Shown: positions 3,711-54,653 of the stretch, one piece after another
Position numbering within the stretch: position 1 is the stretch's first letter
How the letters are laid out: the number at the start of each line of letters is the position of its first letter
NCBI GenBank assembly: GCA_017436325.1
Contig: JAFSDI010000017.1
Span: forward strand, 1 to 56,630
DNA from: Alphaproteobacteria bacterium
GTDB taxonomy: Bacteria; Pseudomonadota; Alphaproteobacteria; Rs-D84
Length of the DNA stretch: 56,630 nt
Direction of reading: 5' to 3'
Program-made: the position numbers and the translations under genes
The notes under the pieces: generated by a model
What the model was told of the DNA's origin: nothing
Seen by the model: the letters and a program-made list of their open reading frames with translations, nothing else
Databases searched by the model: none

Positions 3711-3858
3711 GTATATCCTTTTTTTTGCTTGTACATTTTTAGATATACAACTTGTGTAAAAAAAAATAACTAGGTTCGTTTTCACAACCTAGTTATTAAG
3801 ATAAATTTTATAAAATTATTAAGACATTTCAATTAACATAATAAATAAATTATGTTAC

Positions 3859-6398: not shown

Positions 6399-6415
6399 TA
6401 AACAAGGCAAATAAA

Positions 6416-7054
6416 ATGAAAGCAAAATTACTATTTACACTTGTCTGTATTGCACCAATGACTGTGAATGCAGCAATACCATATCGTGTCGAACAAGTTA
6501 AAATGCCAACCGTTCAAGAAAATGAAACTTATGCCAGTGAACATAGATTCTATATCGGCGGAATGTACAACCTGTCTTTGTGGCAAGATTATACAAACGA
6601 TGCTAATTTGGCAATTAACGGCAAAAGCAGTAAAAACTTTGAGGGGCTGGTTGGTATGCGAATTTTTGATACCTTCAGAATGGAATTAAACTATATACAC
6701 CAAACAGCCAAATGGAATCAATTGAAATTCGACAGCGAAACAATATTGGCCAATGCAATAATTGATGCAAGAATTGACAGTTTATATCGAATCTTAAGAA
6801 ACCAAATGATTATGCCTTATGTCGGGATTGGCGCTGGCGCAGCATGGAACTTTGGCAGCGATGGCACACAGGTAACAAAAAAAATATCACCTGTTGTCGC
6901 TGCAATGGCGGGTATCAGCGTTGAATTCAACCCTATATTCGCACTAGATTTTGGATACAGATATTTATATATGTTCAGCCAGAAAAACAATGTTATGCCA
7001 GAATTTAACCCATCTGCACACCAATTTCGTATAGGGGCAAGGGTCGGCTTTTGA
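6416..7054 (+). CDS. small outer-membrane beta-barrel protein, paralogue-like neighbour of 5628-6398
   Basis: The signal peptide is MKAKLLFTLVCIAPMTVNA and the C-terminus is ...FRIGARVGF. It shares the motif P-Y-[MV]-GIGAG with the upstream gene (VPYMGIGAGFG versus MPYVGIGAGAA). Confidence 0.6.
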   Translation: MKAKLLFTLVCIAPMTVNAAIPYRVEQVKMPTVQENETYASEHRFYIGGMYNLSLWQDYTNDANLAINGKSSKNFEGLVGMRIFDTFRMELNYIHQTAKWNQLKFDSETILANAIIDARIDSLYRILRNQMIMPYVGIGAGAAWNFGSDGTQVTKKISPVVAAMAGISVEFNPIFALDFGYRYLYMFSQKNNVMPEFNPSAHQFRIGARVGF

Positions 7055-33668: not shown

Positions 33669-33769
33669 AATGTCTTTATTTTACATTCTGAATTCTTTCA
33701 AGCAAGGTTTAAATTAAAATACTTTTATGAATTAAATTTTTATGTTATAATATGCATAACATATATACG

Positions 33770-35287: not shown

Positions 35288-35303
35288 ACTTTAAGGATAT
35301 TTG

Positions 35304-36350
35304 ATGATAAGACAAGGTTTTTTGTGGCTGATTGTCGCAATGTTTTTTACACCAATAGACGCGTTCGCACAACGTGGGTCTTTTGATGTCGATCGTTGGT
35401 ACAGTATACTGGATAATCTGCGTTCCCGCGCAATAAATGAAAATATTTCAGATGATGTTATAAACGATGTATTACGCACACCTGCATTTATCCCATCTAT
35501 AGTCAAAAGTGATAAAAATCAAGCAGAATTTAAGTTGACTCTGAACGGATATCTGGATAAAACCGTCAGCAAAGGCCGTATATCAAGCGGAAAAAAAATG
35601 CGCGCAAAATACCCAACTATGCTGGCAAATATAGAACAAAAATATGGTGTTCCCGGGCATATTATGTTGGCTTTTTGGGGGCTGGAATCAAACTATGGCG
35701 CTGTTAAATCGCGGCATAAATTAACAGACGCTTTTTTAACACTGATGTATGATGGTCGGCGCGAAACTTTCTTTTCAAACCAATTAATTGCACTGATGAA
35801 AATTGCAGATGATAATAATTTAGACATCACAAATATTCGTGGTTCTTGGGCGGGCGCAATGGGACACTTTCAGTTTATTCCAACAACCTTGGCGCAATAT
35901 GGGGCGGATGGTAATGGCGATGGTCGTATAGATATTATAAATAACATTAGTGATGCAATGCATAGCGCAGGTAACTATCTGAATAAATTAGGCTGGGATA
36001 AAAATGAACGTATCGTTAGACGCGTTGTTTTGCCTGCTGATTTTGATGTGAATTTACTGGATGGAAAAACAAAATTTTCTTTGCCAGAATGGTCCGCCTT
36101 AGGTGTGACTAATCCAGACGGTTCGACAATCCCACAAACTAAAATGATTGCAGGACTGGTTGCAGATGTAGCAGAAATAAAAGCACAACGCGCCAATTCA
36201 AGTGATGCAAATTCACCCGATACTGACATCGCACCAATGCCTGTTATAACAGCATATCTGACGTATCCGAATTTTTATCGTATTAAAAAATGGAACAATT
36301 CAAACTGGTATGCTATTGCAATTGCAAACCTGGCAGATAATCTGCACTAA
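35304..36350 (+). CDS. lytic murein transglycosylase (MltB/SLT_2 family)
   Basis: An AAGGA SD lies 6 nt upstream of the ATG at 35304 (the track ORF starts at a TTG at 35301). A signal peptide is present. The motifs are FWGLESNYG (catalytic Glu) and GAMGHFQFIPTT. Confidence 0.75.
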   Translation: MIRQGFLWLIVAMFFTPIDAFAQRGSFDVDRWYSILDNLRSRAINENISDDVINDVLRTPAFIPSIVKSDKNQAEFKLTLNGYLDKTVSKGRISSGKKMRAKYPTMLANIEQKYGVPGHIMLAFWGLESNYGAVKSRHKLTDAFLTLMYDGRRETFFSNQLIALMKIADDNNLDITNIRGSWAGAMGHFQFIPTTLAQYGADGNGDGRIDIINNISDAMHSAGNYLNKLGWDKNERIVRRVVLPADFDVNLLDGKTKFSLPEWSALGVTNPDGSTIPQTKMIAGLVADVAEIKAQRANSSDANSPDTDIAPMPVITAYLTYPNFYRIKKWNNSNWYAIAIANLADNLH

Positions 36351-40030: not shown

Positions 40031-42184
40031 TTATGAGCCAGAACCTTCACCTGAGTCAGATTCTATCGGTTTGCCTTCCAATGCACTGTACACCCAATTT
40101 TTTAACAACACAGGGTTAGGGGTATTACGGACATCGCCATTTACCGACATACATGTTATAATCTGTGGTCGACAGGCATTGATTGCAATATTGTTTGCTG
40201 TTTTTTCTTCATCAGTTTCCTGTTCAGCTTCAATACCTACATACTTATTTTGTGTCAAGCATGCTTCTACATCAGTTAAACAATTTTCGGCATACTCATT
40301 TAACAGATTATCCTGCATTGTTTTAATTTGAACTAATGTACGTTGCAAGTATTCCCTGACAACAGGATTAGCTGGATTATATGTACCATCTTTGTTATAG
40401 CTGACATCCTGACATTTATTTAGGACAGACATACACATACCATAATTTCTGCGATCTTCTTTGTCGTTATAACCGATTTTATGTTGTAAGAATCTGGCTA
40501 AATTATAATCTGTATTTACTGGCAAATATACACCACCACCACTATCTTCCAAAGAATCATTAATATAATCCGTTAAGGAGGAATTCGACCATGCATTTAA
40601 ACTGCTATCTTTAATTTGGTTCCAGGTTTTATACAAGCCTTCTGTCGTATAAACAGGCGGAGTCAATGAACCTGAACCAGAAGATTGACCTGGTTCTGAT
40701 CCAACAACAATTTCACCGTTTACGATATACTTGCCAGTTGGGTCAATACAATTTTCATAATCAGAACCACAGACAAAATCGTCCTGCATACATGAATCAA
40801 GCGCGTTTATGCAACCACGCAAATCATATGCATTCTTTTGCTGTGCAACCATTAAGCGCGCACGTTGCAGAACACTTTTTGCATTGCGTACTGTACGTGC
40901 CATTTCTTCGTTGCTGTCTGTTAAACTGCGTTCATAGGCAACACACTGCTTATCAATTTCCAAATCGTATGCATTTGAAATAATTGATACATCAACACCC
41001 TGGGCAGAACAATCTGTTAATACCGCCGCCTTGCAACGCGCAGCAGCTGTTTTATATAATTGTTCGCCACGCTGATTACTGATACTGTTGGTATTCGACT
41101 GATTACCACCAAACAATGATGCTAAATCAAAGCCAGTGCTGTCGATAGAGAAATCCAACATACCAGACAAATCAAAACTCATCCCTGTTTCTGTAGAAGA
41201 TGCCGTTCCGCCCTTTACATCGACAATCAATCTCTTGATTTTATCCAAATCATTCTTTAACTGTGAATTATCAGATTTTGACTGCATTGTTTCTTCTGCA
41301 ATTGTCTGCGTGAACAAGGTTTCAACTTCATCACCAGTCAAGCCAATATACTGAATCTGTTGTGCAACGTCTTGTAATGCCTCTGTCGCTGTTTTTAATG
41401 CTTCTTCGGTTTTGGCATAGTTCTTTAGATTCTTTGAACAGCTGCAACGTCCCTGATTATCATCCAGAACATTACAGAAATTATCCATACACTGGGTATA
41501 CTGCGCCTTGCAAAAATCAGTGATTTGCGCCAATTCATCCATTGACATCGCAACCTGCTCGGCCGATTCGCTGGCAGTTGTGCTGGCACCCACACTTGCA
41601 GTAACACTTGGGATACGTGCACGAACCGCACCAGAACGCATCGCAACACGACCTGTATACAATGGCGCATTAACAGTATCTGTTTGTGTAATTCCAGCAC
41701 GCGACACATCGACAGCCGGCGCATTATTATTTTGCATTGCACGGCGCGTTACAGAAATCTGTTCTTGGGATGTCGGACGCGCAACAGTCGAACGCGATAC
41801 AGCACCGCGTGTCATCGCACCCTGAGTCGTTGCAGTACGTGGTGCAACACGTTGTGTTGTCGCACTGCGTGACGATGGGGTCACACGACCAGTCGCAGCA
41901 ACGCGCCTTGCGCTGTTGTCCGCAGACGATGCAGCACCAGACACAGGCACTGCACGTGAAACAGTACGTCCAGGATTTGCAGTACCACGTGCCCCAGCAC
42001 GAGGAGACTGTACCGCCGGCGCAACATATACCGCACTTCCCTGCTCTATCGTTGCATCATCAGACACTTCTGTATCTGCAACATCTGAAACCTCTTGATA
42101 AGTTTCATCGTAATAAAGCGGTGCAACCTCTGCAAATGCAGGTAACACCAACAGTCCACTTAATACTGCAATAAATCTTTTCAT
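40031..42184 (-). CDS. large secreted protein: Arg/Ser/Thr/Ala-rich low-complexity region plus Cys-rich C-terminal domain, unknown family
   Basis: The signal peptide is MKRFIAVLSGLLVLPAFAE. Residues ~60-200 are R/S/T/A/V-rich quasi-repeats (...RVAATGRVTPSSRSATTQRVAPRTATTQGAMTRGAVSRSTVARPTS...). A Cys-patterned domain follows (FCKAQYTQCMDNFCNVLDDNQGRCSCS...). A GAAGGGAAG SD lies upstream. Confidence 0.65.
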   Translation of the reverse strand: MKRFIAVLSGLLVLPAFAEVAPLYYDETYQEVSDVADTEVSDDATIEQGSAVYVAPAVQSPRAGARGTANPGRTVSRAVPVSGAASSADNSARRVAATGRVTPSSRSATTQRVAPRTATTQGAMTRGAVSRSTVARPTSQEQISVTRRAMQNNNAPAVDVSRAGITQTDTVNAPLYTGRVAMRSGAVRARIPSVTASVGASTTASESAEQVAMSMDELAQITDFCKAQYTQCMDNFCNVLDDNQGRCSCSKNLKNYAKTEEALKTATEALQDVAQQIQYIGLTGDEVETLFTQTIAEETMQSKSDNSQLKNDLDKIKRLIVDVKGGTASSTETGMSFDLSGMLDFSIDSTGFDLASLFGGNQSNTNSISNQRGEQLYKTAAARCKAAVLTDCSAQGVDVSIISNAYDLEIDKQCVAYERSLTDSNEEMARTVRNAKSVLQRARLMVAQQKNAYDLRGCINALDSCMQDDFVCGSDYENCIDPTGKYIVNGEIVVGSEPGQSSGSGSLTPPVYTTEGLYKTWNQIKDSSLNAWSNSSLTDYINDSLEDSGGGVYLPVNTDYNLARFLQHKIGYNDKEDRRNYGMCMSVLNKCQDVSYNKDGTYNPANPVVREYLQRTLVQIKTMQDNLLNEYAENCLTDVEACLTQNKYVGIEAEQETDEEKTANNIAINACRPQIITCMSVNGDVRNTPNPVLLKNWVYSALEGKPIESDSGEGSGS

Positions 42185-45057: not shown

Positions 45058-46353
45058 TTAACTGTTTTCCTTGATAATCTTCCACAGGTTTTTAGCGCCG
45101 CTTTTTGTCTTGCCCCAAATCTTTTTAACATCAGATTGCAACATATCGCCCATCGATGTGTTTATCGCACCGCCAATTTCTGATGCTATTTTGCTGGCAT
45201 TCTTGGCAAGATATATCGATATCGCTAATACCAATATAGAAACAAAAAATCCAGAACTTTCAAACTTTGGCAATGCATCAGATGTGTTTAGCGTAACAAC
45301 CTCTGACAACAATCCTGCACATAACGATATGACAATAGATAAAACAACAAAATGCAAGGCAGCATCTATAAATCTGCTGACTTGCGATTTTAATGATTCT
45401 GCTTTGAACAAGTCCATAAAACCATTAAATATATCGCCAAGAATGCCTTTGTATGATGTCTTGCCAATCGTTTCTGCCAATGCTGTAAATGGCAACATCA
45501 TAATGCCTAAAAATAAGTCAGCAATAACACCAAACGCAACAAATATAAAACGCCAACCAATATATATAAAACCAACAACAAAAATTAAACCACACAAAAA
45601 TGAAAAAGCACTGTGACCAATACCCATAGACATCCAACGCCAACCAGTCGCAATGGCAGAATAACAAAAACCAGATAACCGTGTCGGCAAACACATTATG
45701 TCTGCGGCATAACCAGCATTTATTAAATTAGTGTCTGTGGTATGCGCAATGGTATATTCACGAATCGCAGCACATGTGTCTGGCAATTCCATACCAACAA
45801 TGCCAGAAACCACGTTCAAAATACCGTCAGATATATATGTGGCCGCAGTTAAAATCGGCGACATAACCATCATAAACGTCTGCGCGGGACCAATACGCAA
45901 TACTGCAATCCACATAAAAATAATTACGCCTTTTTTTATAATTTCAATGGTTTTTTCTTTGGCATCTGCCTTGGCTGTTATAATTGTGTATGCTTCGAAC
46001 ATAGTCCAAAATATATACGCAATTATCATAAATATTATTGTAAATCTGACCAATGACAAATCCAAAATATGCGCAACGTGTGACAGCCCATTCATAAACG
46101 CAAGTCCTATCTTGGCTTCTGGGGGAACATAATCTGCAACCACACGTTTTTGAAATTCGCCTTGGAATTCATTTATGTCATTTGTCATAGATGTAACAAA
46201 TAATTCACGATTAACGTCTGTGGCCCAGCTGCCATAGTCGCCAATATCACCCATCGGCAGGTTAGATTCTGCACAAAAAGACGACATCGAAATACACAGT
46301 GATATCAAAACCACAAGTAAACGTGATAAAAATTGTTTTATTATTCGTTGCAC
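45058..46353 (-). CDS. polytopic membrane protein, paralogue 1 of 5 (tentatively TrbL/VirB6-like)
   Basis: The start is a GTG with an AAGGTG SD, 11 nt after the stop of the preceding gene. A signal-peptide-like N-terminus and at least 6 hydrophobic segments are present. A Cys pair lies in the first large loop (PDTCAAI...DIMCLP). The core motif is IMMLPFTALAETIG. Confidence 0.5.
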   Translation of the reverse strand: MQRIIKQFLSRLLVVLISLCISMSSFCAESNLPMGDIGDYGSWATDVNRELFVTSMTNDINEFQGEFQKRVVADYVPPEAKIGLAFMNGLSHVAHILDLSLVRFTIIFMIIAYIFWTMFEAYTIITAKADAKEKTIEIIKKGVIIFMWIAVLRIGPAQTFMMVMSPILTAATYISDGILNVVSGIVGMELPDTCAAIREYTIAHTTDTNLINAGYAADIMCLPTRLSGFCYSAIATGWRWMSMGIGHSAFSFLCGLIFVVGFIYIGWRFIFVAFGVIADLFLGIMMLPFTALAETIGKTSYKGILGDIFNGFMDLFKAESLKSQVSRFIDAALHFVVLSIVISLCAGLLSEVVTLNTSDALPKFESSGFFVSILVLAISIYLAKNASKIASEIGGAINTSMGDMLQSDVKKIWGKTKSGAKNLWKIIKENS

Positions 46354-46364
46354 TGTAACACACC

Positions 46365-47852
46365 TTAATCAGACATACCTTTGGTAATTCCCTGGGCGAT
46401 TTGTTTTGGCACAGACCAAACCTTTTTGCCCAAACTATGAACCCATGCACCATAATCAAACTGTTCGCCAGTTTGTTCCATCTTGTTTTCATTACCGTTC
46501 GTAAAGCGAACAAGCGTACTGTTTGGCAATAATTTATCAATCCGTGGACTGATGATATAATAATATAAAAAGAATAAACAGACCATCATCAATAAAAATC
46601 CCCAACCGTCACGCAGAAAATCAAATGCGTCTGGATATATACGCTCAACCTGTGCACGGCGTGCAGTAAAACAATTCTTAAACAAGTCTTTATCAAGACC
46701 ATCTGACGTCATTGATACGGATTCACATTCTGAAAACACATTCATAACAGATAATGTTTGCGTGTCAGGATTATCTGCCTGCATACCCATCATTGGTGGC
46801 AATATCGCAGTATATCCATCTGCGGGTGCAGGGAAATACATATCTGCGGCATAAGAAATAGTGGCATACAATATAACCACCTTTAGGCTGATTGCAACTA
46901 TTCGAACCGCCGATGATACCAACATACCAATTGCGTTGCTGACCAGTGAGTTAGCCTTGGCCCAAACACCTTCGAATGCTGTTGCAGCCAATAACAATGG
47001 TAAAAAGATTATTATGAATACTAACTTAAATACAACTGATAAAACCTGAAAAAATAAATCAAAACCAACAATTAAAAACATTAGCACAAGTGTCAAACCA
47101 GCCAACCAGGTAAATACCCCACCACCCATATCAAGCCACGCATAATTCATCAGTGCAAAACCACCTGCAGCGCCAGCCAGCATTACACTATTCAAATTTC
47201 CCATAACACACATAAACGGACGCATTATCGGATTTAATATATCGGCAGATTCTGTTTCGCCAATCGCACTTAATGCATTACACTGCGCAGCATCAGAAAT
47301 GCCAGTCGCCGCCATCGCAAGTTCAGAACCAACATATAAAACAGGCGTTATTGTTAGCTGTGAAACAGTACGCAACGCAGTCGTACCACCCAAACCAAGC
47401 GCACCAATCAAAACACCAACAAATAAAATTCTAATACCTTGTTTCCAGACCTTATCGAACCATTCTTTAAATTCGAATTTATATTCTTTGGCATCTAAGG
47501 TCGCTGTCTTTTTTGCGTTGTTATACATATATTGTATCGTATGTATTAAAACAAATACACCAAAACCAAATACAACAAGAACCCATATACTATCAACCAT
47601 TATGTCCCAAAAACGATGAGTCGCATCACCAATAACAGCAAATAAATCAGAAATATACCGACACATAAAACAGCCATTCGCACTTGCAATATCGCCATTT
47701 TCAACACCAATAGATGATAAAAAATTATCCATACTGGTATACGTCATTGCAGAACCACCCAATGATGATGATAAATACCAAATGCCAACCCCCAGCGCAA
47801 TCGCACACATTATGATTTTTACGGCGGCCATAATTAATTTTGCTTTTAACAT
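46365..47852 (-). CDS. polytopic membrane protein, paralogue 2 of 5 (tentatively TrbL/VirB6-like)
   Basis: The ATG overlaps the stop of the upstream gene (TAATG). The N-terminal CxxC is NGCFMCRYISDLF. The loop Cys pair is AAQCNAL...RPFMCVM. The core LFFQVLSVVFKLVFIIIFLPLLLAATAFEG...SNAIGMLVSSAVRIV resembles the TrbL central region, as I recall it. Confidence 0.55.
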   Translation of the reverse strand: MLKAKLIMAAVKIIMCAIALGVGIWYLSSSLGGSAMTYTSMDNFLSSIGVENGDIASANGCFMCRYISDLFAVIGDATHRFWDIMVDSIWVLVVFGFGVFVLIHTIQYMYNNAKKTATLDAKEYKFEFKEWFDKVWKQGIRILFVGVLIGALGLGGTTALRTVSQLTITPVLYVGSELAMAATGISDAAQCNALSAIGETESADILNPIMRPFMCVMGNLNSVMLAGAAGGFALMNYAWLDMGGGVFTWLAGLTLVLMFLIVGFDLFFQVLSVVFKLVFIIIFLPLLLAATAFEGVWAKANSLVSNAIGMLVSSAVRIVAISLKVVILYATISYAADMYFPAPADGYTAILPPMMGMQADNPDTQTLSVMNVFSECESVSMTSDGLDKDLFKNCFTARRAQVERIYPDAFDFLRDGWGFLLMMVCLFFLYYYIISPRIDKLLPNSTLVRFTNGNENKMEQTGEQFDYGAWVHSLGKKVWSVPKQIAQGITKGMSD

Positions 47853-49039
47853 TATTCACCATCCTTTTTGCCGCCAGATATGATTGTTTTTCCAGTCTGG
47901 GTAACTTTGTCCAACGCAATTTTCCCGAACTTTATTAAATCTTCACCCAATTTTTCACCCAAGTCTTTCTTTTCATCAACATTGAATGCACTTAGAATCA
48001 TCTTTGTAATTTGTGGAATTTGCCCATATATATAATTTAATACATACATCAAAACCGTACAACTCATTAATGTCATCGCAGCCAGATTTTCCGTGTTTAA
48101 ATCAAATTCAAATATTTCACCAGTAGTTATCGCAGTCATCAATTCATTAATATTACCATCTGTCGCAGTAAAGAAATTAGCAACAATCATCATTATTACT
48201 GTATACGTTATTACAACAGAACCCAGTGTAACAATAGAATTTATTAAACTTTTTATCTGTTTTGTTCCAACTGAACCACCTAAATTTTTTGCCCATTCGG
48301 GAACACCAGAGATGCCTTGGAATGGAAATACCGCCAAAGATAACGGAAAAAAGAATGCAAACAATGCCATCGACATTATGACATCGACAAAATAACAACA
48401 GTATTTGAAAAACAATCTAAAAAATCCAATCGTTAATGCCAGCCCAATAAAAAACAATACAATATGCTTAATCAATGCACCAATTCCTAGTAAGGCTTGC
48501 CACGAAAATGCACTGTCCATAACAGCAATCCCAAGTTTCATATACGATTGAAACTGAGTCACTGTTGTTTTCATTATCATAATTATCTTGTCACGCAATT
48601 GCGGACGAAAGAAACTGTCGTCTGACATTTCTGTTGGTGTATATGTGACACGGGCGTTAATATCTGCATCTGTTTGCTGAGTCATATACTGTGTATAGGA
48701 TAACGTCATTTGCGCAACAGGTTCAAAAGTAATAGTCGATAAAACGCGCGGAAAAGTAATACCTGCCCCCATTATACCCAGCGCAACAATGCCAGAGATA
48801 AAAACTTTTTGTATAGAATTTTTATACCACGGGTCTGAAAAATCGCTCTTGAAATTTGCGTATATACTGTTTACTACGAATACAGTAAATATCGCGCAAA
48901 ATAAAACAACACATATCATACTGAAATAATCATAAATAGCCGCCGCCGCAATCGATACAATTTGAAACAATCTATCAAAAACAGAACAGCCCCAACACTG
49001 TATGGTATTGTCTATCAAAGATGCTGTCCAATTTGTCAT
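47852..49039 (-). CDS. polytopic membrane protein, paralogue 3 of 5 (tentatively TrbL/VirB6-like)
   Basis: The ATG lies 1 nt after the upstream stop. The N-terminal CxxC is IQCWGCSVFDRLF. The core motif is ALFAFFFPLSLAVFPFQG. The C-terminal tail is hydrophilic. Confidence 0.5.
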   Translation of the reverse strand: MTNWTASLIDNTIQCWGCSVFDRLFQIVSIAAAAIYDYFSMICVVLFCAIFTVFVVNSIYANFKSDFSDPWYKNSIQKVFISGIVALGIMGAGITFPRVLSTITFEPVAQMTLSYTQYMTQQTDADINARVTYTPTEMSDDSFFRPQLRDKIIMIMKTTVTQFQSYMKLGIAVMDSAFSWQALLGIGALIKHIVLFFIGLALTIGFFRLFFKYCCYFVDVIMSMALFAFFFPLSLAVFPFQGISGVPEWAKNLGGSVGTKQIKSLINSIVTLGSVVITYTVIMMIVANFFTATDGNINELMTAITTGEIFEFDLNTENLAAMTLMSCTVLMYVLNYIYGQIPQITKMILSAFNVDEKKDLGEKLGEDLIKFGKIALDKVTQTGKTIISGGKKDGE

Positions 49040-49040
49040 T

Positions 49041-50297
49041 TTACTTCTTTATCCAACCAATTGCTGTGCCTAATTTTTTGCCCATATCTTTTATGCCACC
49101 GTATAGGGTCTTGCTGTCTGATTTTACCTGATTGTACAGTCCATCTAGCCCACCACCAGTATACAACTTTAACTGTTGTTGCGTCATATCAAATATCTTG
49201 AAAAACAAGTAAAACGTTAATATCGCAGACAGCCACGTTACAGAATGTTCACCAAATCCCATTGCGGTATTTGCAGTTTGTGGCAAATTACTGTATGCAG
49301 AACCAGATGCAGCAACAACAAATACAGATGTATTCCATTGAAACAACGCCTTGATGACAGCCAAATCAATACACAACATAAAAGCACAGGCAATCATTGT
49401 GATGATTAAATCTTGCAAGGCCTTGGTTATACCACTGAATGCAGGCCATATATCAAACCATTTGTCACTGGATTTTACAACATAGGTAAATACATTAAAC
49501 GGATATAAAATTAATTGCATTCCAAAATTAAATATTCCCTGAATTATTAACAGCGCCATAAATAAATTACAACCCACAAATGTTATGACCAATAATAATC
49601 CAGTTATGATATTCAAAAAGTTTTCGCCCCCTTGGGGAACAAGTGTAAATAAACCACGCAATCCACTGTTAATAAACTCAAAACCGCGCTTTACAATCTG
49701 GTTGTTTGCATGTGATAAATCTGAAACAGGCTGAACCAAAAATTCACAGGATGCCTGTGAAACCCACCCCTTGTCAATTATACTGGATGGACATTCTATT
49801 TTGGGCGCAGAACCAGAATCATTTATGGTCTGTGTAATAGCATTTGTATATATCGCACCAAGTTCTAAAAATGGATTCACCAACCATTGTGTCAAAAATA
49901 CAGGACTTATCTGCAACAGCAGTACAGCCGCAATCACTGCACGCAACCCAGGTCGCATAACATTTTCTGCAATCTGCCAACCTGTTGCCTGACCTTCATA
50001 TATTTCGCCCCCACCAGAAAAACCAAAATAACCCAACCATTTCTTTGGAAAATACATCTTGAAAACATACAAGGTTATCGTTATCCCCAAAAAAAACCAA
50101 ACCAGTATATAAATAATACCATCGCCATTGCCAACAAAATATTCATAACCACGTGTGGCAATCATCATCAATGCATCAAGAACAACAGGAACAAATGGCG
50201 CCAGATTTAAATTATCTATCAATGATTGCGCATATGCAAAACTAGGCACAAAAAATGCCGATAATAAAAATGCAAAAAAACACGTTTTTTTCAACAA
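49041..50297 (-). CDS. polytopic membrane protein, paralogue 4 of 5 (tentatively TrbL/VirB6-like); first gene of the minus-strand operon
   Basis: The start is a TTG; no in-frame ATG lies near the 5' end. The signal peptide is LKKTCFFAFLLSAFFVPSFAYA. The loop Cys pair is KIECPSS...QASCEFL. The core motif is QLILYPFNVFTYVV. Confidence 0.5.
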   Translation of the reverse strand: MLKKTCFFAFLLSAFFVPSFAYAQSLIDNLNLAPFVPVVLDALMMIATRGYEYFVGNGDGIIYILVWFFLGITITLYVFKMYFPKKWLGYFGFSGGGEIYEGQATGWQIAENVMRPGLRAVIAAVLLLQISPVFLTQWLVNPFLELGAIYTNAITQTINDSGSAPKIECPSSIIDKGWVSQASCEFLVQPVSDLSHANNQIVKRGFEFINSGLRGLFTLVPQGGENFLNIITGLLLVITFVGCNLFMALLIIQGIFNFGMQLILYPFNVFTYVVKSSDKWFDIWPAFSGITKALQDLIITMIACAFMLCIDLAVIKALFQWNTSVFVVAASGSAYSNLPQTANTAMGFGEHSVTWLSAILTFYLFFKIFDMTQQQLKLYTGGGLDGLYNQVKSDSKTLYGGIKDMGKKLGTAIGWIKK

Positions 50298-50327
50298 CTA
50301 CATTCCCAAATATTTTTTATCTTTTCA

Positions 50328-50361
50328 ATTATATCATATTTGTTGCATAATATGGTATAAT
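50328..50361. promoter_or_regulatory. back-to-back extended -10 promoters for the divergent paralogue genes
   Basis: On the minus strand TGATATAAT is the complement of 50328-50336. On the plus strand TGGTATAAT lies at 50353-50361. The plus-strand -10 ends 8 nt before the ATG at 50370 and no SD is present, so the mRNA may be leaderless or have a very short leader. Confidence 0.4.
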
Positions 50362-50369
50362 TAAAAACA

Positions 50370-51668
50370 ATGAGTCGACTAAAAAAATTTTGGGTTGCAT
50401 TTTTATCTTTTCTGCCGTTAACAGCGGCGGCATGGGCTCCTTTTGTTGTCGCAGGTGCAGCAGGCGCAGTTGCAATTGCAGGATTTTCAATTTATCGCAG
50501 TCTTTTTCCAGTCAGTATGACAGATGCATATCAATTCTTTTCTACGTGCTGGTCATGCGAAATGTTTTCCGGAATTATGTCAACGATGTCTGACATCCTG
50601 CCCGCGATTTATTCCGCATTAGGAAAAACTATTGTGCCATTCGCAATTTTGCTGATGGCAATTTGGATAGCCTGGACACTGATAGATAATTTTTTAAACA
50701 ACAAAAACAAAGACTTTGAAAACCCATGGTCTTTGGCCAGTGATTTTACAAATAAACTTGTTAAACTGGGGATTATTTCTATCTTTTTATTGGCACCGCT
50801 GCCACGAATTATTAGCGAAGTCGCAATCCAGCCTATATTCAATATTGGACTGTCTTTGAACAGGGCTGTGGTTCACGATGATACATTTGATTCTTGCGTT
50901 ATCGCAACCGCAATTGCAGACCCAGCCTCAATCGACAAAAGTGCCGCAAATTCAGGTGCATTTTCACCAAAACTGCGATATAATTTAGCGTGCGAGCTGG
51001 CAGGTGTCCACCAATTAACAGGACTGGGGATGACCGTTGGATGGACAATGATTAATATGGCATTTAATCGTGACTATATGCATAAAATATTATGGAATGT
51101 CCCAATATTTCCAAATGTCATAATGTTCTTTGCAGGCTTTTTAATCTTGGCCCTGTTTTTAATGGCACTTATCCCGATACCAATATATTTCTTAGAAATA
51201 TTTATCAAACTGTCACTGGATTTGATTATGTTACCACTGATGTTATTGGCGTGGCTGTTCAAGGGATGGAAAATATCACTTCAAGGCGCAGGAAAAACAA
51301 TATCGCAAATTGTCGATGGTGTTATTAATGGGACACTGGGACTGGCTGTGACCGGCGTGTTTGTCAGTTTCGCAGTTATGTTTCTTGAGGCCTTGTTTGG
51401 CGATTGGCAAGGTCAATCTGTTCTGGCCACAGCAATAGCACAAAACGATTCGAAATTCTTGATGGATGCATTAATGCTGCGTAACGACAGTCTGATAACC
51501 ATTGTATTGATGGGAATATTTATCGCAATGTTTATGATAATGATTCCAGCATTATCAAAGACTTTGTTCAAGGTAGAAATTTCACAAGACTTCTATAACA
51601 CCACAAAAAAGAATACTCAAATAATGTGGAACGCATTGAAAAAGTGGTACGAAATGATAAAAAAATAA
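50370..51668 (+). CDS. polytopic membrane protein, paralogue 5 of 5 (tentatively TrbL/VirB6-like), divergently transcribed
   Basis: The N-terminal CxxC is STCWSCEMFSGIM. The loop Cys pair is FDSCVIA...NLACELA. The core motif is LDLIMLPLMLLAWLFKG. At least 7 hydrophobic segments are present. Confidence 0.5.
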   Translation: MSRLKKFWVAFLSFLPLTAAAWAPFVVAGAAGAVAIAGFSIYRSLFPVSMTDAYQFFSTCWSCEMFSGIMSTMSDILPAIYSALGKTIVPFAILLMAIWIAWTLIDNFLNNKNKDFENPWSLASDFTNKLVKLGIISIFLLAPLPRIISEVAIQPIFNIGLSLNRAVVHDDTFDSCVIATAIADPASIDKSAANSGAFSPKLRYNLACELAGVHQLTGLGMTVGWTMINMAFNRDYMHKILWNVPIFPNVIMFFAGFLILALFLMALIPIPIYFLEIFIKLSLDLIMLPLMLLAWLFKGWKISLQGAGKTISQIVDGVINGTLGLAVTGVFVSFAVMFLEALFGDWQGQSVLATAIAQNDSKFLMDALMLRNDSLITIVLMGIFIAMFMIMIPALSKTLFKVEISQDFYNTTKKNTQIMWNALKKWYEMIKK

Positions 51669-51735: not shown

Positions 51736-52245
51736 ATGACAAAGTTTCCGATTCTTTATTGGCCGCGCAGGACAACTGGGGATACAGAATACCAGTTGGC
51801 GCGTAAAGTAATAAATAATTCATGCGGTGTAATGCCTGATGTATGTACTGATGATTTAGATATCGCAGACATATTAAATAAAAATCCAAACGCAGTTATT
51901 TATTATCCTGTGTTCTGCGGTTCAACAGGATGGTGGGGCGAATTGCTGGGCAGCGATGGTGTCGTATGCGACAAACTGATTATATCGCCAGAATGTCAAC
52001 TGATGGTTATCGAATCCGAAAAACAGGTCAAACCAACCGGAAAAACACAATTGCTGGCAGCAGAGATTTATCCAACCAGCGGATTCTTTAAAAAAATGAA
52101 TTCTGGAATAGCAACTGTTGCAGATATGCTGGCCACGGATGCAGGTACTATATTAGCACTGTTTTCAGGAAAAAACCAATCACAGTTTATAAATATATTA
52201 GAATCTACGGGAAATTCCTATCTGGGCTGTATCGGCAGATATTAG
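51736..52245 (+). CDS. hypothetical protein (169 aa), unknown family
   Basis: This is the only long ORF in the interval. It has no signal peptide, no clear SD and contains several Cys. It follows paralogue 5 on the same strand. Confidence 0.4.
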   Translation: MTKFPILYWPRRTTGDTEYQLARKVINNSCGVMPDVCTDDLDIADILNKNPNAVIYYPVFCGSTGWWGELLGSDGVVCDKLIISPECQLMVIESEKQVKPTGKTQLLAAEIYPTSGFFKKMNSGIATVADMLATDAGTILALFSGKNQSQFINILESTGNSYLGCIGRY

Positions 52246-53293: not shown

Positions 53294-53363
53294 ATTTTGA
53301 TGTTTTTTCTTCTTGCGTACGATTCATTTTTTGTTCTATGATTGTTTTGGAAGGAAAGGAATT

Positions 53364-54653
53364 ATGCATAGATTATCAATCTGCGTATTGTCGTTGTTTG
53401 TTACATCTGGTTTGTGGGCAAATACAAGAATGCCGGTGGTAAATATTGCCGCAGGCGGGGTTTCTGCACGCAGCGCATTTGGTGAAGAAATCGTTAAAAA
53501 CACAAAAAAAATAGAAGGACAAAAAGCAACACAAACACGCACTAAAAAAGTCGTGGCGCGCAATACAAAAAAAGCACACACACCACAAGTTATGCCGATT
53601 GCAAAAACTGATGTTGCTGTAAACAATTCAGATATTCTTAGCCCACAAAGACCAAGTCCTGATTTATGGGCAAAAAATGATGCAACACTGCGTATGCCAC
53701 ACCCAAGTGAATTTTCTGTATACAGAAACGATTCGATTCTGCCAGAAGAAAGTTTAGATTCTGCACCTGTTAATTCTGAAAAGTTTTTTGCAAAGACAGA
53801 AACTAAACCTGTGCAGGTTGCGAAAAGCAATACATCAGAATTAGATACACAAATCGCACGATTGATTGATTTGCAAAAAAAAGCAGAAGATAGTGTACGT
53901 ACAGTATCGTCACGCGTTATTGCCGCACCAATTACAGACGAAACTGTGAATGAACCTGTAAAATTAGCCGAATCATTAGACAAAACAGAAATAGATAAAC
54001 CCGTATCTTTGCGCCGTATGGTCGTTCCAATGAATGACGATGTTATTGTAAGAAAAGTAGAAAAAAATAAATCGCCAAAAATCGCGCGTGTGCGTGAGGA
54101 TATGACAAAAATGAGCCCATCCGAACTAAGAAATGCGTTTAGGAAAACTTTCTTGTCTGAAAATAAGCATTTATCAACTTATTCCGTTGATAGTTCTTTT
54201 GATACAATCAGTGATATGTCATCTTCGATAGAAGGTTTTACCGCAAAACGTGATTTGTCTGAAGATGGCGGAATCAGACCATTGGAAATAAAAATTAAAT
54301 TCAGAAATGCTGATTCTGCACTTTCGCGCGATAACTATACTTTGTTAACCGAATATGCAGGTATTGTTGTCAATAAACCAACACGCGCAATTCAGATTGC
54401 AATCCCAGAATATATGACAAAAAGCAAAGATGAACGCAAATTAGCCGCACGTAGATTAGCAATCGTTGAACAGGTGCTGAATGACAATGGTGTTTCACAA
54501 CAGCGCATCATCCCTGTTCTGTCACAACGAAATGAATCTGGGTTTGTTTTGCGCATAATTTCAAGCGAACAGTATGAAAGCCTGACCCAGCAACACAGAA
54601 ATATTTTTGGTGACGATATGGGTAAGACTACTTATAAAAGTATGACGTGGTAA
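53364..54653 (+). CDS. exported protein with a C-terminal OmpA/MotB-like peptidoglycan-binding domain
   Basis: The start was moved to the ATG at 53364 (AAGGAAAGGA SD; the track ORF starts at a TTG at 53313). The signal peptide is MHRLSICVLSLFVTSGLWA. The C-terminal sequence ...LAARRLAIVEQVLNDNGVSQQRI fits the OmpA_C pattern L...RA..V...L...GV...RI. Confidence 0.6.
   Translation: MHRLSICVLSLFVTSGLWANTRMPVVNIAAGGVSARSAFGEEIVKNTKKIEGQKATQTRTKKVVARNTKKAHTPQVMPIAKTDVAVNNSDILSPQRPSPDLWAKNDATLRMPHPSEFSVYRNDSILPEESLDSAPVNSEKFFAKTETKPVQVAKSNTSELDTQIARLIDLQKKAEDSVRTVSSRVIAAPITDETVNEPVKLAESLDKTEIDKPVSLRRMVVPMNDDVIVRKVEKNKSPKIARVREDMTKMSPSELRNAFRKTFLSENKHLSTYSVDSSFDTISDMSSSIEGFTAKRDLSEDGGIRPLEIKIKFRNADSALSRDNYTLLTEYAGIVVNKPTRAIQIAIPEYMTKSKDERKLAARRLAIVEQVLNDNGVSQQRIIPVLSQRNESGFVLRIISSEQYESLTQQHRNIFGDDMGKTTYKSMTW

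What the first reader, a model, noticed from the sequence alone, without database searches (positions are those of the whole stretch)
45058..51668. Array of five paralogous polytopic membrane proteins, tentatively TrbL/VirB6-like, with no other type IV secretion genes nearby
Five consecutive genes encode proteins of 395-495 aa that share an architecture: an N-terminal segment, a TM, a large loop, a cluster of 4-5 TMs and a hydrophilic tail.

Four of the genes form a tightly coupled minus-strand operon: the junctions are a TAATG overlap, a 1-nt gap and an 11-nt gap with an SD. The fifth gene is transcribed divergently from a 72-bp region that holds two back-to-back extended -10 promoters (TGATATAAT and TGGTATAAT). 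The plus-strand promoter leaves almost no 5' UTR.

Several sequence features are shared. Three members have an N-terminal C-x-x-C followed by an aromatic or hydrophobic run (NGCFMCRYISDLF, IQCWGCSVFDRLF, STCWSCEMFSGIM), while the other two have cleavable-looking signal peptides instead. Four members have a Cys pair in the first large loop. All five have a core motif [FLM]-[LFY]-P-[LF]-x-x-[LFV]-[AT] after a long hydrophobic helix (IMMLPFTALA, IFLPLLLAA, FFFPLSLAV, ILYPFNVFT, IMLPLMLLA).

The region around this motif in paralogue 2 (LFFQVLSVVFKLVFIIIFLPLLLAATAFEG…SNAIGMLVSSAVRIV) resembles my recollection of the TrbL central region. Tandem VirB6 amplification is a hallmark of the Rickettsiales vir-homologue T4SS, but there it sits next to virB3/virB4, which are absent here.

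Two explanations are possible. This may be a scattered, rvh-like T4SS island. Alternatively, it may be a new family of envelope channels or scaffolds, possibly linked to the many orphan exported proteins in this window.
Basis: partly seen in the sequence, partly recalled or inferred. Interest (0 to 1): 0.75.

Follow-up and report, generated by a model that had tools for sequence, protein, structure and literature searches.

The report
Five-gene array of divergent VirB6-like proteins
A tiny-genome gut bacterium (Candidatus Enterousia) keeps five very different copies of VirB6, the membrane "platform" protein of type IV secretion machines; this echoes the unexplained five-copy array of Rickettsia and matches the five-fold symmetry of the VirB6 platform.

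Summary

Pairwise similarity links only some of them. A family HMM hits all five (E 2e-17 to 7e-103) and nothing else in the window.

None of the five hits Pfam TrbL/VirB6 directly. The link is remote but supported by three lines of evidence:
- Eight homologues from sister alphaproteobacterial lineages hit PF04610 on the same profile segment (two above threshold).
- Their joint profile matches 11 genuine plasmid VirB6 proteins (96% probability, E 1e-9) and each of p1–p5 (96.5–99.5%). Reversed-column controls reach at most 6.5%.
- AlphaFold models of p3 and p4 both have R388 TrwI/VirB6 as their top four PDB matches.

The array is kept in every untruncated locus from 80 Enterousia/Rs-D84 species. 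Five-member arrays also occur in two more distant lineages, always among housekeeping genes.

No other T4SS gene lies in the window. In three Enterousia species, however, a solitary chromosomal VirD4 coupling-protein gene lies about 1.7–6 kb from the array.

Best reading: this is the VirB6 islet of a dispersed, Rickettsia-rvh-like T4SS, possibly a heteropentamer. It is a new variant of a known kind.

The parts
45058..46353 (-). p1: VirB6-like paralogue, 431 aa. It has a signal-peptide-like N-terminus, a loop Cys pair (C194/C221) and the core motif IMMLPFTALA. It is the last gene of the four-gene operon.
   Evidence: ORF. Family HMM E 9e-25. hhalign against the TrbL-positive bridge profile: 98.7%, E 1.9e-16 over 297 columns. 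Orthologs found in 77 loci with median identity 51.5%.
46365..47852 (-). p2: VirB6-like paralogue, 495 aa. It has an N-terminal TM, a CxxC (C61/C64), a loop Cys pair (C191/C215), an extra Cys pair (C376/C394) and the core motif IFLPLLLAA.
   Evidence: Family HMM E 2e-35. Bridge profile 99.2%, E 3e-19. The p2 HMM hits L084:15734-17278 at E 6e-23, and that protein carries a TrbL hit of 23.5 bits.
47852..49039 (-). p3: VirB6-like paralogue, 395 aa. It has an N-terminal CxxC (C15/C18), no loop Cys pair, and the core motif FFFPLSLAV.
   Evidence: Family HMM E 2e-45. Bridge profile 99.3%, E 1e-20. The AF2 model (pTM 0.62) has TrwI/VirB6 as its top four PDB matches, best E 9.6e-3 with probability 1.00.
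49041..50297 (-). p4: VirB6-like paralogue and first gene of the operon. It is 418 aa from the TTG start, which gives a signal peptide (gene callers use an ATG giving 402 aa). It has a loop Cys pair (C169/C184) and the core motif ILYPFNVFT.
   Evidence: Family HMM E 2e-17. Bridge profile 96.5%, E 9e-10 over 230 columns. The AF2 model (pTM 0.52) has TrwI/VirB6 as its top four PDB matches, probability 0.96-0.99 and target-normalised TM 0.45-0.49.
50370..51668 (+). p5: VirB6-like paralogue, 432 aa, transcribed divergently and probably leaderless. It has an N-terminal TM, a CxxC (C60/C63), a loop Cys pair (C176/C208) and the core motif IMLPLMLLA.
   Evidence: Family HMM E 7e-103. Bridge profile 99.5%, E 2.5e-23 over 334 columns. 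Reciprocal best hits with L103 gene 2 and L105 gene 1.
50298..50369 (.). Divergent control region of 72 bp with two back-to-back extended -10 elements. TGATATAAT faces the p4-p3-p2-p1 operon and TGGTATAAT faces p5.
   Evidence: Sequence. Conservation in orthologous loci is 58/74 toward p4, 52/74 toward p5 and 51/74 for both, against 0.63 motifs per kb background. Promoter activity itself is inferred.
48329..48355 (-). Core VirB6 signature segment in p3 (FFFPLSLAV, invariant Pro232). Equivalent segments: p1 45475-45504, p2 46983-47009, p4 49485-49511, p5 51225-51251.
   Evidence: Coordinates and Pro conservation (78/80 to 81/81). The motif aligns to the VirB6 consensus GPiFI..f..T..fF..W in the bridge-versus-VirB6 hhalign.
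48986..48997 (-). Clade-specific N-terminal CxxC in p3 (CWGC). Equivalents: p2 47661-47672 (CFMC) and p5 50547-50558 (CWSC).
   Evidence: Conserved in 100% of orthologs. Invariant in the eight bridge proteins. No N-terminal CxxC in any of the 11 plasmid VirB6 proteins; one has an unrelated C-terminal CxxC.

Best explanation
The five genes encode highly diverged members of the TrbL/VirB6 superfamily. VirB6 is the polytopic inner-membrane and periplasmic subunit that forms the central pentameric platform, or protochannel, of type IV secretion systems.

They form the 'VirB6 islet' of a chromosomally dispersed T4SS in Candidatus Enterousia. Enterousia belongs to order Rs-D84, a group of gut Alphaproteobacteria with genomes of about 0.9 Mb that lack most biosynthetic pathways. 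The arrangement is analogous to islet A (virB6a-e) of the Rickettsiales rvh system.

Shown:
- The five proteins are homologous to one another and to VirB6.
- The five-gene set is strictly retained across species, with tight coupling of four genes and conserved divergent promoters.
- A VirD4-type coupling protein is present in Enterousia chromosomes.

Inferred:
- The five non-redundant paralogues are made together and co-assemble, most simply one of each, into a hetero-oligomer that takes the place of the VirB6 homopentamer.
- Their N-terminal segments and large loops lie in the periplasm. These are stabilised by the conserved Cys pairs, with the CxxC either forming a disulfide or acting as a redox or metal site. 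The Lys-rich tails lie in the cytoplasm.
- The machine serves exchange with a partner or host cell, on which this organism is thought to depend.
For: Homology:
- Eight relatives hit Pfam PF04610, always on profile positions about 79-195. They are P0197 (34.2 bits) and P0216 (26.3 bits), both above the 25.9 cutoff, then P0221, P0224, P0207, L084:15734-17278, L085:11543-12916 and L085:15281-17650.
- Thirteen of 22 P0197 relatives carry a precomputed PF04610 domain. NCBI names one of them 'type IV secretion system protein'.
- The bridge profile matches 11 true VirB6 proteins at 96.4% (E 1.1e-9, 140 columns) and matches p1-p5 at 96.5-99.5%. Reversed controls reach 2.0% against VirB6 and 0.7-6.5% against p1-p5.
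- The family Pro motif aligns to the VirB6 GP(L/I)F signature.
- Foldseek top hits for two independently built models are TrwI/VirB6.

Selection and co-expression:
- The array is intact in 77/80 species loci, and the three exceptions are truncated contigs.
- Median identity is 51-65%.
- The junctions and promoters are conserved.

Non-redundancy:
- There are exactly five members in the window, in L104, in L084 and in L103.
- p2-, p3- and p5-type orthologs are recovered by reciprocal best hits. Their relative order is kept across lineages.

T4SS link:
- VirD4/T4CP genes occur at L030:3449-5698, L036:1-1314 and L035:3-1328. L036 and L035 were scanned: PF02534 scores 120 and 115 bits, plus TraG-D_C and TrwB_AAD_bind.
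- These genes lie about 1.7-6 kb from p5 among housekeeping genes. That indicates a dispersed system rather than an integrative element.

Pentamer premise:
- VirB6 in R388 and DotA in Dot/Icm assemble as pentamers (PMC12857230).
- Rickettsia has five divergent virB6 copies in a dispersed 'archipelago' (PMC2653234).
Against: - None of the five proteins, nor the p3 and p5 consensus sequences, hits PF04610 or any NCBIfam T4SS model.
- Direct hhalign against MPF-T VirB6 is not significant, with probability <=8%.
- Fold matches are weak: E 1e-2 to 3e-1 and TM 0.30-0.49, from models with pLDDT 61-66.
- No VirB2, B3, B4, B5, B8, B9, B10 or B11 was found in 1.86 Mb of fetched loci or in about 73 kb around the window.
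- VirD4 was seen near the array in only 3 of 80 species. It was not seen in the window's own strain.
- A published metabolic survey of Rs-D84 does not mention a T4SS.
- The VirB6 Trp reported as essential does not align to a conserved Trp in the bridge profile.
- L085 and L105 show four detectable members, not five.
- Hetero-oligomer assembly is untested.
Confidence: 0.55

Rival explanations
1. The array is a repurposed, T4SS-independent complex. The VirB6 descendants would have been retained after loss of the secretion ATPases and outer-membrane core. They would now form an autonomous inner-membrane and periplasmic channel or scaffold, for example for uptake from a partner cell or for envelope biogenesis.
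For: - No T4SS gene other than VirD4 appears in any of about 90 loci.
- In six lineages the only genes shared around the arrays are the arrays themselves.
- The neighbours are envelope or housekeeping genes: a PLD-domain protein and a sugar epimerase here, the dcw cluster in L104, LpxK and a Kdo-transferase-like glycosyltransferase in L105, and an OmpA-like gene in L103.
- The proteins have diverged beyond Pfam recognition and gained clade-specific CxxC and disulfide features.
- The Rs-D84 survey reports no standard transporters and many unknown membrane proteins.
Against: - To my knowledge, no T4SS-independent role is known for any VirB6 family member.
- A conserved chromosomal VirD4, which only makes sense alongside a T4SS channel, is present in Enterousia and lies next to the array in three species.
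- Only about 8% of the genome could be inspected, and the Rickettsia precedent shows that T4SS genes can be scattered genome-wide.
Confidence: 0.25
2. The five are alternative VirB6 isoforms of one T4SS. Each paralogue would form its own homo-oligomer, used for different substrates, conditions or partner cells, instead of co-assembling.
For: - All solved VirB6 and DotA assemblies are homopentamers.
- Anaplasmataceae manage with four copies, and R. massiliae lacks virB6e. L085 and L105 have four detectable copies. So five is not obligatory.
- p5 has its own promoter.
Against: - Four genes are translationally coupled in one operon and share a divergent control region with the fifth, so differential use is not obvious.
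- No species among 77 untruncated loci has lost any copy, despite genomes of about 1 Mb or less.
- The paralogue types are ancient and keep their order.
Confidence: 0.15
3. These are not VirB6 homologues at all. They would be an unrelated family of helical membrane proteins whose hydrophobic composition produces spurious TrbL, hhalign and Foldseek matches.
For: - There are no direct Pfam or NCBIfam hits.
- Direct hhalign is not significant.
- TM-scores are below 0.5.
- Six of the eight TrbL hits fall below the gathering threshold.
Against: - Among 24,736 Pfam models, the only recurrent hit across 38 relatives scanned is TrbL, and always on the same profile segment.
- Reversed-column controls, which keep composition, drop from 96-99% to between 0.7% and 6.5%.
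- Two independent models both rank VirB6 chains first to fourth out of 350,542 PDB chains.
- The conserved Pro motif aligns with the VirB6 GP motif.
- VirD4 is a neighbour in three species.
Confidence: 0.04

Closest known systems
Rickettsiales vir homologue (rvh) T4SS, islet A: tandem RvhB6a-e (Gillespie et al. 2009, PMC2653234)
   Same: - It is a tandem chromosomal array of VirB6-family paralogues in a reduced-genome alphaproteobacterium.
- There are five copies in most Rickettsia genomes.
- The copies are extremely divergent from each other (about 80% aa divergence there; 20-26% identity, or undetectable, here).
- Each copy is conserved across species.
- The T4SS genes are dispersed among housekeeping genes, with virD4 elsewhere.
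   Different: - The rvh array directly follows virB3-virB4a, and no VirB3 or VirB4 is present here.
- RvhB6 proteins are 'extended' (674-1154 aa), and every copy hits PF04610/COG3704. The Enterousia proteins are 395-495 aa and none hits PF04610.
- Enterousia has one gene inverted (a 1+4 divergent layout), N-terminal CxxC motifs and loop Cys pairs.
- The organism is a gut or rumen bacterium of unknown cell biology, not a known intracellular parasite.
- Orthology to RvhB6a-e could not be tested because no RvhB6 sequences were available.
Classical VirB6/TrbL of MPF-T conjugative and effector T4SSs (A. tumefaciens VirB6; R388 TrwI, PDB 7O3V/8RT9/8RTD)
   Same: - The superfamily is the same, as shown by the bridge profile at 96% and E 1e-9.
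- The core signature around the conserved Pro is shared.
- It is the best fold match for the p3 and p4 models.
- It is an all-helical polytopic protein with a large periplasmic portion. The N-out/C-in topology of A. tumefaciens VirB6 is recalled from the literature, not tested here.
   Different: - Classical VirB6 is a single copy embedded in a virB operon between virB5/eex and virB7/virB8. It forms a homopentamer capped by VirB5.
- Here there are five paralogues, no operon partners and no VirB5.
- There is no detectable direct sequence or profile similarity.
- The CxxC and the conserved cysteines are absent from the classical proteins.
DotA of the Legionella Dot/Icm T4BSS (VirB6 analogue; pentamer with IcmX)
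   Same: It is a central pentameric protochannel made by a very divergent VirB6-type protein, which shows how far the family can drift while keeping its role.
   Different: DotA is a single large protein encoded in dot/icm clusters. No similarity to it was tested or seen here.

Membership tests
TrbL/VirB6 (Pfam PF04610) | The protein itself scores above the PF04610 gathering threshold | tested here: not met
   hmmscan finds no TrbL hit for p1-p5 at E<=10, nor for the p3 and p5 consensus sequences at E<=1. NCBIfam finds no T4SS model.
TrbL/VirB6 (Pfam PF04610) | Homology to bona fide VirB6 demonstrable through intermediate sequences or profiles | tested here: met
   Eight relatives hit PF04610 on positions about 79-195, two of them above threshold. 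Their profile matches 11 plasmid VirB6 proteins at 96.4% (E 1.1e-9) and p1-p5 at 96.5-99.5%. Reversed controls reach at most 6.5%.
TrbL/VirB6 (Pfam PF04610) | Direct profile-profile similarity to classical MPF-T VirB6 | tested here: not met
   hhalign of each ortholog profile against the 11-sequence VirB6 profile gives probability 0.7-7.8%. tblastn of p3 and P0197 against 72,556 plasmids finds no match. An A1 profile search against PDB sequences finds no match.
TrbL/VirB6 (Pfam PF04610) | VirB6 fold | tested here: met
   For p3 the top four PDB matches are TrwI/VirB6 chains (best E 9.6e-3, probability 1.00, TM 0.30/0.38). For p4 the top four are TrwI/VirB6 (probability 0.96-0.99, target-normalised TM 0.45-0.49). 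Caveat: the models are moderate (pLDDT 66 and 61) and all TM-scores are below 0.5, so this is a weak pass.
TrbL/VirB6 (Pfam PF04610) | Conserved core signature (GP(L/I)F... and the Trp reported as essential) | tested here: inconclusive
   The invariant family Pro aligns with the VirB6 GP motif. The VirB6 Trp column aligns to a non-Trp position in the bridge consensus. p2, p3, p4 and p5 each have a Trp 11-18 residues after the Pro, but p1 does not (read from the sequences).
TrbL/VirB6 (Pfam PF04610) | Encoded within or next to a virB/trb operon (VirB3/B4/B5/B7-B11) | tested here: not met
   No T4SS Pfam family occurs in the 56.6-kb window or about 16 kb beyond it. R388 probes find no VirB2-B5 or VirB8-B11 in 1.86 Mb of loci. 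Only VirD4 is found, in 3 species, about 1.7-6 kb from p5.
TrbL/VirB6 (Pfam PF04610) | Assembles as a central pentamer contacting VirB5/VirB2 | not testable with these tools
   No multimer prediction or biochemistry was available. The pentamer premise comes from PMC12857230.
Rickettsiales rvh RvhB6 array | Tandem array of four or more mutually very divergent VirB6 paralogues, each conserved across species | tested here: met
   There are five members at 20-26% identity or less. There is 1:1 orthology in 77/80 species loci. For comparison, see PMC2653234.
Rickettsiales rvh RvhB6 array | Array contiguous with virB3 and virB4 | tested here: not met
   The array is flanked by a PLD-domain protein and a sugar epimerase on one side. 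On the other side are a 169-aa unknown, L31 and IMPase. L084 and L103 have only an 86-88-aa two-TM gene upstream, of unknown relationship.
Rickettsiales rvh RvhB6 array | 'Extended VirB6' architecture (670-1150 aa with large hydrophilic extensions) | tested here: not met
   The Enterousia proteins are 395-495 aa. Sister-lineage arrays do include extended members of 650-868 aa.
Rickettsiales rvh RvhB6 array | Orthology to RvhB6a-e in a phylogeny | not tested
Rickettsiales rvh RvhB6 array | Remaining T4SS genes dispersed as chromosomal islets among housekeeping genes | tested here: inconclusive
   A solitary virD4 sits among housekeeping genes: truB and mutS, or RNA-methyltransferase-domain and pseudouridine-synthase genes, and YidC and RecR in relatives.

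The most novel reading that the evidence does not exclude
The five paralogues are the five protomers of a hetero-pentameric VirB6 platform or protochannel. It would belong to a dispersed, highly diverged T4SS that a metabolically crippled gut alphaproteobacterium of about 0.9 Mb uses to tap a partner cell.

The match between copy number (five, in four independent lineages here and in Rickettsia) and the five-fold symmetry of VirB6 and DotA would then explain the long-puzzling VirB6 amplification of Rickettsiales. It would amount to subfunctionalisation of a homopentamer into a heteropentamer.
Probability: 0.3. Interest if true: 0.8.

Novelty: new variant of a known kind. Interest (0 to 1): 0.6.

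Why it matters
VirB6 is among the less well understood conserved T4SS subunits. Why Rickettsiales keep four or five wildly divergent copies in shrinking genomes has been open since at least 2009.

This finding gives an independent second setting for the same phenomenon. The setting is gut and rumen Alphaproteobacteria of order Rs-D84 and several sister lineages, with proteins so diverged that standard annotation calls them all 'hypothetical'.

The recurrence of exactly five ancient, order-preserving paralogue types fits the now-known pentameric VirB6 architecture. Together they make a concrete and cheaply testable hypothesis: a heteropentamer.

The finding also flags a probable T4SS in a widespread, uncultured, partner-dependent gut lineage whose means of interacting with other cells is unknown. 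And it supplies sequences that would let Pfam TrbL be extended to this clade.

Tried and rejected
- Direct Pfam and NCBIfam scans of p1-p5 and of consensus sequences gave nothing meaningful.
- tblastn of p3 and of the best bridge protein against all plasmids gave no match.
- A PDB sequence-profile search with the p3 alignment gave no match.
- Direct hhalign of each paralogue profile against 11 plasmid VirB6 proteins was not significant. For this reason the claim is 'remote superfamily member' and not 'VirB6 ortholog'.
- Supplements of the Rs-D84 genomics paper are not held.
- A literature search for Rs-D84 plus 'secretion system' found nothing relevant.
- The VirB11-like phmmer hits in four loci turned out to be MgsA-type AAA+ ATPases. 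The weak VirB8 hit in L085/L086 lies antisense inside a family gene and was dismissed.
- The metagenome scan for VirD4 relatives mostly returned organisms with about 50% GC. These are useful only for showing that this VirD4 type is a solitary chromosomal gene.
- The 365-aa gene inside the L085 array is not detectably a family member.
- The conserved 169-aa neighbour of p5 has no Pfam or PDB match.
- An integrative conjugative element was considered as the origin and rejected. The flanks are housekeeping genes, GC is uniform, and synteny holds across 77 species.

Full report
**1. What is in the sequence**

The five ORFs exist exactly as listed:
- p1 45058-46353(-), 431 aa
- p2 46365-47852(-), 495 aa
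- p3 47852-49039(-), 395 aa
- p4 49041-50297(-), 418 aa
- p5 50370-51668(+), 432 aa

The junctions are a TAATG overlap (p3/p2), a 1-nt gap (p4/p3) and an 11-nt gap with AAGGTG before the GTG of p1.

The 72-bp divergent region carries TGATATAAT facing p4 and TGGTATAAT facing p5. A generic sigma-70 scan of the whole region finds no more sites than shuffles do. These two elements are nevertheless conserved in orthologous loci: 58/74 toward p4, 52/74 toward p5 and 51/74 for both. The background is 0.63 per kb. The p5 element ends a few bases before the ATG, so p5 is probably leaderless. That last point is an inference.

Ortholog-averaged hydropathy shows one shared layout. There are TM cores near residues 90-110 and about 150, a large loop, a long double-TM block, and further TMs followed by a Lys-rich tail. 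In the shorter p3 these positions are shifted by about 50-60 residues.

- The CxxC is present in 100% of p2, p3 and p5 orthologs.
- The loop Cys pair is present in 97-100% of p1, p2, p4 and p5 orthologs.
- p2 has a further invariant pair.
- The motif proline is conserved in 78/80 to 81/81 alignment rows per paralogue.

**2. Organism and conservation**

p3 has 1,046 database homologues. All are unnamed or 'hypothetical', none has a Pfam domain, and the named ones come from uncultured Alphaproteobacteria.

A scan of GTDB species representatives returned 80 loci from Candidatus Enterousia and related gut and rumen MAGs. One comes from a closed 958,618-bp chromosome.

Enterousia belongs to order Rs-D84. 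Its genomes are about 0.75-1.0 Mb and lack amino-acid, nucleotide and lipid biosynthesis, respiration and standard transporters. It is proposed to be an obligate symbiont or parasite (PMC12306168).

In 77 of the 80 loci all five genes are present in the same order and orientation. The three exceptions are contigs that end inside the array.

The five genes are less conserved than adjacent housekeeping genes. Median identity to the window proteins is 51-65%, against about 83% for the neighbours. That is typical of envelope-exposed proteins.

**3. Paralogy**

Pairwise comparison supports only p3-p5 (E 1e-11), p2-p3 (5e-5) and p1-p2 (2e-5). p4 matches nothing.

Profile-profile comparison of the ortholog alignments gives long collinear matches:
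- p3-p5 97%
- p1-p4 90%
- p1-p2 83%
- p1-p5 79%

A family HMM built from relatives in other lineages hits p5, p3, p2, p1 and p4 at E 7e-103, 2e-45, 2e-35, 9e-25 and 2e-17. It hits no other ORF of the window at E<=10.

So all five are homologous, and there are exactly five in this 56.6-kb window.

**4. Relationship to VirB6**

Direct tests fail.
- There is no PF04610 or NCBIfam T4SS hit for any of the five, or for the consensus sequences.
- There is no tblastn match in 72,556 plasmids.
- There is no PDB sequence match.
- hhalign against a profile of 11 genuine plasmid VirB6 proteins is not significant, with probability <=8%.

The relationship emerges in three other ways.

(a) Intermediate sequences. 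An exhaustive search of 1.84 billion representatives with the p3 profile found only 106 clusters. Among the distant full-length hits and their array neighbours, eight proteins hit PF04610.
- P0197 scores 34.2 bits and P0216 26.3 bits, both above the 25.9 cutoff.
- P0221, P0224, P0207, L084:15734-17278, L085:11543-12916 and L085:15281-17650 score 17-25 bits.
- All eight hits fall on TrbL profile positions about 79-195.
- Where the alignments overlap, this segment corresponds to the double-TM block plus Pro motif of the Enterousia proteins.
- Apart from one C-terminal Peptidase_M23 fusion, no other Pfam family recurs among the 38 relatives scanned.
- Thirteen of 22 P0197 relatives carry a precomputed PF04610. 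NCBI names one of them 'type IV secretion system protein'.

(b) The profile chain. The profile of these eight bridge proteins matches the true-VirB6 profile at 96.4% (E 1.1e-9, 140 columns). It matches the five paralogues as follows:

| Paralogue | Probability | E-value |
|---|---|---|
| p1 | 98.7% | 1.9e-16 |
| p2 | 99.2% | 3e-19 |
| p3 | 99.3% | 1e-20 |
| p4 | 96.5% | 9e-10 |
| p5 | 99.5% | 2.5e-23 |

Column-reversed controls, which keep composition, give 0.7-6.5%. The aligned core puts the family's LLPLLI..F..T motif onto VirB6's GPiFI..f..T..fF..W.

(c) Fold. AlphaFold2 models of p3 (19 sequences, pLDDT 65.6, pTM 0.62) and p4 (68 sequences, pLDDT 60.7, pTM 0.52) were built from independent alignments. 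Each has chains of TrwI/VirB6 from the R388 T4SS as its top four hits among 350,542 PDB chains.
- For p3 the best hit has E 9.6e-3 and probability 1.00.
- For p4 the hits have probability 0.96-0.99 and target-normalised TM 0.45-0.49.
- TM-scores are below 0.5, so this is supporting evidence and not decisive.

I conclude with about 90% confidence that these are remote members of the TrbL/VirB6 superfamily. They form a clade that current Pfam and NCBIfam models miss.

Clade-specific features are the N-terminal CxxC and the conserved loop cysteines. The CxxC is invariant in the bridge proteins as well. The 11 plasmid VirB6 proteins have no N-terminal CxxC and share no conserved Cys positions.

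**5. The array recurs, usually with five members**

The table covers the Enterousia array and five further lineages.

| Locus | GC | Family members | Notes |
|---|---|---|---|
| Enterousia | 38% | 5 | 1+4 divergent layout |
| L104 | 44% | 5 | clear orthologs of p1-p5 (E 1e-132 to 1e-180), same 1+4 layout, beside the dcw genes |
| L084 | 28% | 5 | five consecutive members of 514-858 aa |
| L103 | 30% | 5 | five consecutive members of 474-857 aa |
| L085/L086 | 45% | 4 | plus an unrelated 365-aa gene inside the array |
| L105 | 38% | 4 | one member split |

In every case the flanks are housekeeping or envelope genes. No other gene is shared between the neighbourhoods.

Reciprocal best hits recover p2-, p3- and p5-type orthologs across lineages, for example ENT_p2 = L084 gene 4 = L103 gene 4 = L105 gene 3. 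Their relative order (p5-type, p3-type, p2-type) is preserved in L103 and L105, and is less clear in L084. So the diversification into distinct types is ancient.

**6. Other T4SS genes**

Pfam annotation of the whole window and about 16 kb beyond shows none.

Probing all fetched loci (1.86 Mb) with the R388 proteins found no VirB2, B3, B4, B5, B8, B9, B10 or B11. It did find a VirD4-type coupling protein in three Enterousia species:
- L036:1-1314
- L035:3-1328
- L030:3449-5698 (full length, 749 aa)

The evidence is PF02534 at 120 bits (L036) and 115 bits (L035), plus TraG-D_C and TrwB_AAD_bind. In NCBIfam the L030 protein matches VirD4/TraG models, all below equivalog cutoffs.

In L030 this gene is about 1.7 kb from p5. 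Between them lie IMPase and the conserved 169-aa gene, with room for the L31 gene seen in other loci.

Its neighbours are housekeeping genes:
- truB and mutS
- RNA-methyltransferase-domain and pseudouridine-synthase genes
- YidC, RecR and an rRNA adenine dimethylase-family gene in relatives with higher GC

This is a solitary chromosomal virD4 and not part of a mobile element. That is the pattern of a dispersed T4SS.

VirB4 and the core complex remain unlocated. I could inspect only about 8% of one genome.

**7. Mechanism proposed**

Established knowledge:
- In R388, VirB6 forms a central pentamer anchored by two N-proximal helices, with VirB5 on top.
- DotA does the same with IcmX.
- The assembly is thought to be a protochannel and pilus platform (PMC12857230).
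- Most Rickettsia genomes have five virB6 copies that are about 80% divergent. They sit beside virB3/virB4a in one of five T4SS 'islets', with virD4 in another (PMC2653234).

Inference:
- The five Enterousia paralogues are co-expressed from one bidirectional control region, four of them by translational coupling.
- They co-assemble into a VirB6-type platform, most simply as a 1:1:1:1:1 heteropentamer.
- The N-terminal segments are periplasmic. They follow signal peptides in p1 and p4 and a first TM in p2 and p5. In p3 the N-terminus is acidic.
- The large loops are also periplasmic and are disulfide-stabilised.
- The complex works with VirD4 and further components encoded elsewhere.

Confidence by step:

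| Step | Confidence |
|---|---|
| T4SS role | about 0.6 |
| Heteropentamer | about 0.3 |

**8. Rivals**

| Rival | Confidence |
|---|---|
| Repurposed, T4SS-independent complex | 0.25 |
| Alternative homo-oligomeric isoforms | 0.15 |
| No true homology | 0.04 |

Evidence for and against each is given in the structured fields.

**9. Novelty and verdict**

Tandem VirB6 amplification in a dispersed chromosomal T4SS is known from Rickettsiales, so the kind is known. The following are new:
- The lineage: Rs-D84 and several uncultured sister groups, for which literature searches found nothing on this.
- The degree of divergence, below all curated models.
- The compact, non-extended proteins with CxxC and disulfide features.
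- The detachment from virB3/virB4.
- The recurrence of exactly five ancient paralogue types, which fits the pentameric architecture.

I rate it a new variant of a known kind, with interest 0.6.

Noticed in passing
window 51736-52245 (+): A 169-aa ORF lies immediately downstream of p5, called as 137 or 169 aa by gene callers. It is present in 75 of the loci at median 82% identity, which is more conserved than p1-p5. A 183-aa gene occupies the same position after the p5 ortholog in L104. It has no Pfam or PDB match and is not hydrophobic. It could be a housekeeping gene or a soluble partner of the array.
   Followed up: partly
L030:3449-5698; L036:1-1314; L035:3-1328: A solitary chromosomal VirD4/TraG-type coupling-protein gene sits among housekeeping genes. 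It is divergent, falling below all NCBIfam equivalog cutoffs. Relatives at 53-61% identity in other metagenomes are also solitary. The same upstream genes (RNA-methyltransferase-domain and pseudouridine-synthase genes) appear to recur in L110-L113, judged by ORF size and position; only L111 was scanned with Pfam.
   Followed up: partly
window 49041-50297 (-): The start codon of p4 is uncertain. Public gene calls use an internal ATG (402 aa) that truncates the signal peptide. The TTG at 50297 (418 aa) restores a KK-hydrophobic-AYA|Q signal peptide that matches the ortholog consensus.
   Followed up: partly
L084:9734-10000 and L103:4967-5227: An 86-88-aa protein with two hydrophobic helices is encoded directly upstream of the first VirB6-like gene in two low-GC lineages. 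This is the position that virB3 occupies relative to virB6 in Rickettsia, apart from virB4. No homology test was done, and Enterousia has no equivalent gene.
   Followed up: no
P0215 (653 aa; cluster of 10, contigs up to 190 kb): A distant family member has its N-terminal VirB6-like region fused to a C-terminal Peptidase_M23 (LytM-type) domain scoring 107 bits. This recalls the peptidoglycan hydrolase (VirB1-type) functions of T4SSs.
   Followed up: no
window 633-3785 (-): A 1050-aa autotransporter carries a Chlamydia polymorphic-membrane-protein (PMP) repeat and a C-terminal beta-barrel domain (118 bits). Two OMP beta-barrel genes lie nearby at 5628-7054. It is a candidate adhesin in an organism thought to depend on a partner.
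   Followed up: no
window 40031-42184 (-) and 53313-54653 (+): Two large ORFs of 717 aa and 429-446 aa have no Pfam domain. The 717-aa protein is found near the array in 34 loci at only about 35% identity, so it is fast-evolving. The 446-aa protein has a signal-peptide-like N-terminus.
   Followed up: no
window 33752-36350 (+): A gene with the Pfam 'Pom' domain (PF17251, 511 aa) is followed by an SLT_2 lytic transglycosylase (348 aa). An SLT-type enzyme could in principle serve as a VirB1 equivalent, but nothing links it to the array.
   Followed up: no
L085:12918-14015: A 365-aa gene sits in the middle of the L085/L086 VirB6-like array and shows no detectable similarity to the family (hhalign <=3.6%). 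It is either an unrelated insertion or a fifth member diverged beyond recognition.
   Followed up: partly
loci L001-L080, p1-distal flank: Synteny is conserved on the p5 side (169-aa gene and IMPase in 75 loci, with L31 between them where checked). It breaks immediately after p1: the PLD-domain and sugar-epimerase genes of the window are adjacent in only 2-3 loci. The array therefore sits at a recurrent rearrangement boundary.
   Followed up: no
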